A DNA stretch of 27,562 nucleotides from Bacteroidia bacterium (GTDB taxonomy: Bacteria; Bacteroidota; Bacteroidia; M30B66), in NCBI GenBank assembly GCA_046303595.1, contig JBKCFX010000387.1, positions 1-27,562 of the forward strand. The letters run 5' to 3'. Positions within the stretch are counted from its first letter, which is position 1. The number at the start of each line of letters is the position of its first letter. The notes under the pieces are model-generated. The model saw only the letters and a list, made by a program, of their open reading frames with translations, did no database searches and was not told where the DNA came from. The position numbers and the translations under genes are program-made. This document shows, one piece after another, positions 1,058 to 1,174 of this stretch.

Positions 1058-1108
1058 TTCCACTTAATTCGAAAAAGTAGCCAATTGTATTTTTAATTCT
1101 ACCACTTA
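1058..1108 (+). promoter_or_regulatory. Putative LytTR-type operator: three 9-bp direct repeats with 21-bp period
   Basis: TTCCACTTA (1058-1066), AGCCAATTG (1079-1087) and TACCACTTA (1100-1108), each separated by 12 bp, lie between the LytTR gene and the five-gene cluster. Confidence 0.6.
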
Positions 1109-1174
1109 TAAAGCGGCCGATTTTATTACCACAGAATAGAACACATTTGTATAGCACAAATTCACATTCAACCT

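What the first reader, a model, noticed from the sequence alone, without database searches (positions are those of the whole stretch)
1058..1149. Three direct repeats at exact 21-bp period suggest the adjacent LytTR system controls the cluster
Seen: the core CCA[C/A]TT starts at 1060, 1081 and 1102, giving 9-mers TTCCACTTA, AGCCAATTG and TACCACTTA separated by 12 bp. A degenerate -7-like CACATTTG lies at 1142-1149. Established: LytTR proteins such as AgrA bind imperfect 9-bp direct repeats spaced by 12 bp just upstream of the promoter. Inference: the cluster has a weak, activator-dependent promoter driven by the upstream HK/LytTR pair, so expression would be signal-induced.
Basis: partly seen in the sequence, partly recalled or inferred. 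Interest (0 to 1): 0.65.

Follow-up and report, generated by a model that had tools for sequence, protein, structure and literature searches.

The report
LytTR regulator binding sites before operon
Three short DNA repeats spaced exactly 21 bases apart are very probably the docking sites through which the neighbouring two-component regulator switches on a large surface-protein and Rhs-toxin operon; this is an ordinary kind of switch, but it has not been described for this group of freshwater bacteria.

Summary
CCACTT, CCAATT and CCACTT start at 1060, 1081 and 1102. CACATTTG lies at 1142-1149.

The array is not chance. It is one of only two triple arrays in the 3.15-Mb genome.

In five genomes of the genus the three boxes and the -7 box are nearly invariant, while the spacers have diverged. 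The distance from box 3 to the -7 box never changes. In two of these genomes the target operon lies far from the regulator gene and still carries the array.

The same boxes sit upstream of the kinase-regulator operon itself, which points to autoregulation. They also precede a conserved ~98-nt non-coding transcript, a candidate small RNA.

The genome has a single LytTR protein. Genus members without its orthologue lack such sites.

The box [AG]CCACTTA matches 7 of 8 bases of the E. coli BtsR (YehT) boxes at btsT, which are also three, spaced 20 and 21 bp. The regulator is 32% identical to BtsR.

Binding, the transcription start and induction are untested.

This is a new member of a known kind, of moderate interest. 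Earlier notes of this scan describe similar 21-bp LytTR-type arrays in many other Bacteroidota genomes.

The parts
3..281 (+). C-terminal 92 aa of the sensor histidine kinase, cut by the contig end
   Evidence: There is a weak HATPase_c match. The fragment aligns to residues 956-1047 of the 1047-aa G002 orthologue. The rest of the gene lies on contigs C76 and C303. The orthologue has Reg_prop, Y_Y_Y, His_kinase PF06580 and HATPase_c domains.
287..1033 (+). Response regulator with a receiver domain and a LytTR DNA-binding domain (248 aa)
   Evidence: Pfam gives Response_reg at 4e-23 and LytTR at 2e-16. It is the only LytTR match in the genome. It is 32% identical to E. coli BtsR, E = 4e-35.
1058..1066 (+). 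Box 1 (distal), TTCCACTTA, centred near -92 from the predicted start
   Evidence: The core is conserved at the same phase in G002, G003, G005 and G009.
1079..1087 (+). Box 2 (middle), AGCCAATTG, centred near -71
1100..1113 (+). Box 3 (proximal), TACCACTTA, with the conserved tail TAAAG; centred near -50
   Evidence: It is the highest-scoring box in the weight matrix. It matches 7 of 8 bases of the E. coli btsT boxes ACCGCTTA and ACCACTCA.
1121..1124 (+). Weak -33-like element, TTTT where the consensus is TTTG
   Evidence: Position inferred from the -7 box, using the Bacteroidota sigma-A consensus (PMC7366714). It lies 12 bp downstream of the 9-mer of box 3. Conservation is poor.
1142..1149 (+). 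Degenerate -7 box, CACATTTG (consensus TAnnTTTG)
   Evidence: CAnnTTTG starts exactly 40 bp after the box 3 core in all five orthologous promoters, and 6 of 8 columns are invariant. The consensus occupies -12 to -5 (PMC9723704).
1152..1156 (+). Predicted transcription start (about 1154), giving a leader of about 21 nt
   Evidence: Inferred from the position of the -7 box. It has not been mapped.
1175..2398 (+). First regulated gene: beta-helix lipoprotein (407 aa)
   Evidence: Pfam Beta_helix. It is 75-81% identical in G002, G003, G005 and G009 and 51% in G020, and it is preceded by the box array in every case.
2464..20520 (+). Rest of the presumed operon: 364-aa, 2255-aa, 2500-aa Rhs/DUF6443 and 894-aa proteins
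   Evidence: The ORFs are tightly packed on one strand. RHS_repeat and DUF6443 match the 2500-aa protein. No further box pair lies inside the operon.

Best explanation
The three boxes ([AG]CCA[C/n]TTA, 21-bp period) are the operator of the LytTR response regulator encoded just upstream. When the propeller-type sensor kinase phosphorylates the regulator, it would occupy the boxes on one face of the helix, centred near -50, -71 and -92. From there it would recruit RNA polymerase to a promoter that is weak on its own: the -7 box is CAnnTTTG instead of TAnnTTTG, and the -33 element is TTTT instead of TTTG. This would switch on the operon from the beta-helix lipoprotein gene to the Rhs protein and the 894-aa protein. 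The same regulator would also activate its own kinase-regulator operon through two boxes upstream of the kinase gene, and a ~98-nt non-coding transcript elsewhere in the genome through three boxes. Shown here: the sequences, their conservation, their genomic distribution and their likeness to the BtsR operator. Inferred: binding, activation rather than repression, the transcription start, and the signal.
For: (1) The array is statistically unusual.
(2) There is a phylogenetic footprint in five genomes: 17 of 21 core columns and 6 of 8 -7-box columns are invariant, against 11 of 89 other columns, with no indel between box 1 and the -7 box (alignments).
(3) In G005 and G009 the lipoprotein operon is unlinked from the regulator gene yet keeps the triple array and the AACACATTTG box at the same distance.
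(4) A pair of boxes upstream of the kinase gene is conserved in G000 (C76), G002, G003, G005 and G009.
(5) The genome has one LytTR protein.
(6) The weight-matrix scan gives only three loci scoring 28-30; the next best scores 19.5.
(7) Six genomes with the orthologue have [AG]CCACTTA-type pairs, and five genus members without it do not.
(8) The regulator is 32% identical to BtsR. The E. coli btsT promoter has GCCGCTCA, ACCGCTTA and ACCACTCA at offsets 0, 20 and 41.
(9) The layout fits what is published for LytTR operators: repeats of 9-11 nt with spacers of 11-13 nt (PMC4847170), placed about 10 bp upstream of the -35 element, with autoregulation (PMC6193735).
(10) In more distant regulator loci, same-strand CC[AG]NT[TC] pairs 20-22 bp apart lie just downstream of the regulator gene in 11 of 96 loci, against 0.47 expected from shuffles and 0-1 in controls.
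Against: There is no binding, expression or start-site data. The only RNA-labelled runs are contigs of depth 2 and are uninformative. No terminator lies between the regulator gene and the operon, so read-through could contribute to expression. The presence/absence correlation rests on 11 related genomes and is confounded by phylogeny. The -33 element is poorly conserved. None of the 67 metagenome loci with 31-44% identical regulators carried this motif, so the design is not universal among LytTR regulators. Three boxes rather than two leave the stoichiometry open.
Confidence: 0.8

Rival explanations
1. The boxes are real protein-binding sites, but for another transcription factor that is specific to this clade, not for the adjacent LytTR regulator.
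For: The presence/absence correlation could reflect shared ancestry. In G005 and G009 the array is not next to the regulator gene.
Against: The boxes flank the kinase-regulator operon in three genera: g1, G011 in g3 and G020 in g5. The 21-bp direct-repeat layout and the box sequence match the operator of the homologous BtsR. No other regulator gene is consistently linked to the sites.
Confidence: 0.07
2. The boxes bind the LytTR regulator, but they repress or only modulate. The operon would mainly be transcribed by read-through from the kinase-regulator promoter.
For: No terminator follows the regulator gene. RefSeq annotates BtsR as a dual regulator.
Against: The boxes lie at about -50 to -92, upstream of a conserved weak -7 box at a fixed distance, which is an activator geometry. 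In G005 and G009 the operon has the same promoter with no regulator gene upstream.
Confidence: 0.08
3. The repeats are a chance or structural feature, such as DNA curvature or a leftover duplication, with no regulatory role.
For: The region is AT-rich, where short repeats are common. Single hexamer pairs at 21 bp occur about 20 times per genome by chance.
Against: A triple array is expected about 0.03 times per genome, yet two are seen, both intergenic and with the same promoter geometry. The cores are invariant across five genomes while the spacers diverge. Two strain populations show no change in 1034-1174 although the flanking genes vary.
Confidence: 0.02

Closest known systems
E. coli BtsS/BtsR (YehU/YehT) and the btsT (yjiY) promoter
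   Same: The regulator has the same receiver-plus-LytTR architecture and is 32% identical. The kinase core is the same Pfam family, PF06580. The operator box is nearly the same: ACCACTTA here, ACCGCTTA and ACCACTCA in E. coli. Both promoters have three same-strand boxes, at 21/21 bp here and 20/21 bp in E. coli. G020 also has 20/21.
   Different: From my own knowledge, the BtsS sensor is a multi-pass membrane pyruvate receptor. The sensor here has a signal peptide and periplasmic Reg_prop/Y_Y_Y domains. The E. coli target is a pyruvate transporter; the target here is a lipoprotein/Rhs operon, the system's own operon and a candidate small RNA. The promoter is of the Bacteroidota -33/-7 type.
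AgrA operators at agr P2/P3 (Staphylococcus aureus)
   Same: Imperfect 9-bp direct repeats lie upstream of weak, activator-dependent promoters. The system autoregulates, and a regulatory RNA is a second target (PMC4227749; box ACAGTTAAG, PMC11039898). Box 1 of G002 and of the extra G005 array reads CCAGTTAAG, an 8 of 9 match.
   Different: AgrA sites have two boxes per promoter. Agr is a peptide quorum-sensing system with AgrB and AgrD; nothing comparable lies next to this system. It belongs to Firmicutes and uses sigma-70-type -35/-10 promoters.
LytTR Regulatory Systems (HdrRM, BrsRM) of Streptococcus mutans
   Same: Direct repeats with 12-bp spacers lie about 10 bp upstream of the -35 element, with positive autoregulation (PMC6193735).
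   Different: Those are LytTR proteins held in check by a membrane inhibitor, with no kinase or receiver domain. The system here is a classical two-component pair.

Membership tests
LytTR-family response-regulator operator (direct-repeat type) | Two or more imperfect direct repeats of 9-11 nt | tested here: met
   Three 9-mers share the core CCA[C/A]TT. The consensus from 36 boxes is [AG]CCAcTTAT.
LytTR-family response-regulator operator (direct-repeat type) | Spacer of 11-13 nt (period of about 21 bp), conserved in relatives | tested here: met
   The spacers are 12 nt. The phase is identical in five orthologous promoters. The genome-wide spacing peak is at 21.
LytTR-family response-regulator operator (direct-repeat type) | Position just upstream of the -35-equivalent element of the regulated promoter | tested here: inconclusive
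   Box 3 ends 12 bp before a TTTT at the expected -33 position, and its core starts 40 bp before a conserved CAnnTTTG. The start site is predicted, not mapped.
LytTR-family response-regulator operator (direct-repeat type) | A cognate LytTR-domain regulator in the genome, typically adjacent and autoregulated | tested here: met
   The regulator gene is adjacent and is the only LytTR match in the genome. A conserved box pair lies upstream of the kinase gene.
LytTR-family response-regulator operator (direct-repeat type) | Physical binding of the regulator to the repeats | not testable with these tools
   This needs a gel-shift or footprinting experiment.
BtsS/BtsR-type (LytS/LytTR) two-component system | Regulator homologous to BtsR and a kinase with the PF06580 core | tested here: met
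   32% identity, E = 4e-35. PF06580 matches at 1.8e-23 in the G002 orthologue of the kinase.
BtsS/BtsR-type (LytS/LytTR) two-component system | LytS-type multi-pass membrane sensor domain | tested here: not met
   The sensor part is a signal peptide followed by Reg_prop and Y_Y_Y domains. So this is a relative with a different input module, not a BtsS orthologue.
agr-type peptide quorum sensing | Pheromone precursor and processing or export genes linked to the kinase and regulator | tested here: not met
   The locus order is gdh, kinase, regulator, lipoprotein operon. No small peptide or AgrB-like gene is present.
Bacteroidota sigma-A promoter | -7 box TAnnTTTG and -33 TTTG | tested here: inconclusive
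   The -7 box matches 5 of the 6 specified positions, with a conserved C in place of the first T. The -33 element is TTTT. This fits a weak promoter, but the start site is unmapped.

The most novel reading that the evidence does not exclude
A BtsR-like two-component system with a periplasmic propeller sensor forms an agr-like circuit in freshwater Chitinophagales. It would switch on itself, an Rhs-toxin/outer-membrane operon and a dedicated ~98-nt trans-acting small RNA, all through the same three-box operator. That would make deployment of a contact or secreted toxin signal-dependent and add an RNA arm to the regulon.
Probability: 0.3. Interest if true: 0.6.

Novelty: new member of a known kind. 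Interest (0 to 1): 0.42.

Why it matters
Bacteroidota genomes encode many kinase-LytTR pairs with propeller-type sensors. I found no paper that describes an operator or regulon for any of them, although the library searched is limited. This locus offers a box sequence, a promoter design and a three-promoter regulon that can be tested directly. It links the system to the well-studied BtsR operator. It also suggests that a giant Rhs-toxin operon in an uncultured lake bacterium is induced by a signal rather than expressed constitutively.

Tried and rejected
(1) A possible fourth half-site, CCACAG at 1129, is not conserved in any orthologue and was rejected.

(2) A motif-free autocorrelation of regions downstream of regulator genes peaks at 21 bp, but the coding controls also peak at multiples of 3. 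I therefore relied on the motif-specific spacing test instead.

(3) The metagenome scan gave only two close orthologues. Both are of the G005/G009 type with no array downstream of the regulator gene. The other 31-44% identical regulators lack this motif.

(4) Sequencing runs: the organism occurs in freshwater and lake metagenomes. The two RNA-labelled runs look like one data set and hold only two 151-nt contigs, so they say nothing about a transcription start.

(5) Rfam found nothing in the window's first 2.5 kb, on C544, or in the G002/G003 loci.

(6) Target prediction for the candidate small RNA with duplexfold gave unrealistic long-bulge duplexes and no signal at the operon's start codons.

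(7) An exact-pattern scan of genome contigs for the small-RNA core returned only the G002 and G003 genomes and two chance coding matches.

(8) A sequence search of the LytTR domain against solved structures reached only 3d6w (E = 9e-4), so DNA-contact residues could not be compared with AgrA.

(9) Pfam gave no useful names for the extra targets in G005 and G009.

Full report
**Observation.** The window is a whole contig (C387) of a 3.15-Mb, 644-contig metagenome-assembled genome. CCACTT is at 1060, CCAATT at 1081 and CCACTT at 1102. The 9-mers are TTCCACTTA, AGCCAATTG and TACCACTTA, each pair separated by 12 bp. CACATTTG is at 1142-1149, and the ATG of the next gene is at 1175. The pattern CCAMTT-N15-CCAMTT occurs only here in the window, against 0.05 matches expected. 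Across the genome, CCANTT pairs show a peak at spacing 21: 36 pairs against about 20 at other spacings. Only two triple arrays exist.

**Context.** Upstream lie the last 92 codons of a histidine kinase and a 248-aa response regulator with receiver and LytTR domains. This regulator is the only LytTR match in the genome. The kinase gene is split over contigs C76, C303 and C387. Its G002 orthologue (1047 aa) has a signal peptide and Reg_prop, Y_Y_Y, His_kinase (PF06580) and HATPase_c domains. Downstream lie a beta-helix lipoprotein gene (1175-2398) and then the 364-aa, 2255-aa, 2500-aa Rhs/DUF6443 and 894-aa genes. No terminator-like site lies between the regulator gene and the lipoprotein gene.

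**Conservation.**
- Orthologous regulators (83-89% identical) occur in G002, G003, G005 and G009, and 61-65% identical ones occur in two other genera.
- G002 and G003 have the same gene order, and their intergenic regions carry three boxes at exactly 21 bp, with CAnnTTTG starting 40 bp after the third core.
- In G005 and G009 the regulator gene is followed by glycosyltransferase genes with no boxes. There the lipoprotein operon sits on another contig and still carries the triple array and AACACATTTG at the same distance.
- In an ungapped five-genome alignment, 17 of 21 core columns and 6 of 8 -7-box columns are invariant, against 11 of 89 other columns.
- G020, from another genus, has three boxes at 20 and 21 bp in front of a 51% identical lipoprotein gene.
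- Two strain populations show no difference within 1034-1174, although the flanking genes vary.

**Regulon.** The genome scan and a weight-matrix scan single out three loci.
- The window's array.
- C76:8022-8048. This is a pair of boxes (ACCACTTGT, then GCCACTTAT) between the gdh terminator and the start of the kinase gene. It is conserved in G002, G003, G005 and G009 together with TGATTTTG 38 bp downstream. It is an autoregulatory site.
- C544:752-799, minus strand. Three boxes are followed by TTTG at the same offset as in the window, then about 98 nt with no conserved ORF, then a 10-bp hairpin and a T-run. This module is 85-89% identical in G002 and G003 although its flanks differ. I read it as a candidate small RNA gene.

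Genus members without the regulator orthologue (G001, G004, G006, G007, G008) have no [AG]CCACTTA-type pairs. G005 and G009 each have one further site, in front of genes of unknown function.

**Mechanism.** The Bacteroidota sigma-A -7 box TAnnTTTG spans -12 to -5 (PMC9723704), and a TTTG element lies near -33 (PMC7366714). This places the start near 1154, the boxes near -50, -71 and -92, and a TTTT at the -33 position. The conserved departure from consensus in the -7 box, the poor -33 element and the fixed box-to-promoter distance fit a promoter that depends on an activator. Published LytTR operators show the same logic: repeats of 9-11 nt with spacers of 11-13 nt (PMC4847170), placement about 10 bp upstream of the -35 element with autoregulation (PMC6193735), and weak core promoters (PMC4227749). 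Binding, activation and the signal are all inferred.

**Comparison with known systems.** The regulator is 32% identical to E. coli BtsR. The btsT promoter fragment used as the YehT binding site in PMC4847170 lies upstream of btsT in E. coli genomes. It reads GCCGCTCA, ACCGCTTA and ACCACTCA at offsets 0, 20 and 41. That is three same-strand boxes, each matching 6 or 7 of 8 bases of the window's ACCACTTA. From memory, the published BtsR motif is ACC[G/A]CT[C/T]A with a 13-bp spacer (Kraxenberger et al. 2012; that paper is not held). The system is therefore a relative of BtsS/BtsR with a different sensor module and different targets. It is not an agr-type peptide system. In wider sampling, 11 of 96 LytTR-regulator loci, all among the class-level relatives, carry same-strand CC[AG]NT[TC] pairs 20-22 bp apart directly after the regulator gene. 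Shuffles give 0.47 and controls give 0-1. The metagenome loci with 31-44% identical regulators do not carry this motif.

**What the regulated operon contains across genomes.** The lipoprotein gene is constant. It is followed either by the gene set seen in the window, whose first downstream gene (the 364-aa protein) is confirmed in G003, or by a 564-aa protein and another giant protein (G005, G009, G020); the 564-aa protein is homologous to the C-terminal half of the window's 894-aa protein. In G011 and G018 the boxes directly precede the 565-aa homologue.

**Novelty and verdict.** I found no paper on LytTR operators in Bacteroidota. Earlier unchecked notes of this scan report similar 21-bp, often three-box arrays in at least 56 other genomes. 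It is a new member of a known kind and of moderate interest. The candidate small RNA under the same operator is the most novel lead.

Noticed in passing
G000 contig C544 (locus L039), about 800 to 606, minus strand: A second triple box array is followed by TTTG at the same offset as in the window, then a ~98-nt stretch with no conserved ORF, then a hairpin terminator. The module is 85-89% identical in G002 and G003 although its flanks differ. I read it as a candidate small RNA under LytTR control. It has no Rfam match.
   Followed up: partly
G000 contig C76 (locus L040), 8022-8112: Two boxes lie between the gdh terminator and the kinase start codon, conserved in five genomes. Two conserved -7-like boxes follow: TGATTTTG at 8081, and a perfect TACTTTTG at 8105, only 10 nt before the ATG. 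This looks like an inducible promoter plus a basal one. The kinase gene is split over contigs C76, C303 and C387.
   Followed up: partly
window 1145-1161: An inverted repeat, ATTTGT-N5-ACAAAT, overlaps the -7 box and the predicted start. It is kept with a different loop sequence in G005, partly kept in G009, and absent in G002 and G003. It could be an operator for a second factor, or just shared ancestry.
   Followed up: no
L155 (G005:C12) 3595-3643; L125 (G009:C100) 757-784: These are extra box arrays. One precedes a 240-aa ORF with no Pfam match. The other precedes a signal-peptide protein of at least 476 aa with a weak Ig_7 match. So the regulon differs between species.
   Followed up: partly
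L043 1-300 and L044 about 1160-1500 (G003, G002): A ~170-nt GC-rich stretch that looks structured (GGGGAGGAGGAGTGGCGGACCCC...) lies just upstream of the small-RNA module and is conserved between the two genomes. It has no Rfam match at gathering score.
   Followed up: no
window 1034-1065: One contig from an RNA-labelled lake run (depth 2) diverges from the window right after the regulator's stop codon. It still reads CCACTT about 1 bp out of register with box 1. This hints at a strain variant that keeps the box.
   Followed up: no
L039 876-741, minus strand: A 45-codon ATG ORF runs through the three boxes on C544, reading them as SHL, YHL and HHL. It is not conserved upstream in G002 or G003, so it is probably spurious.
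   Followed up: partly
L163 406-454 (E. coli btsT promoter): The E. coli BtsR site holds three boxes at offsets 0, 20 and 41, not just two. This mirrors the three-box design seen here.
   Followed up: partly
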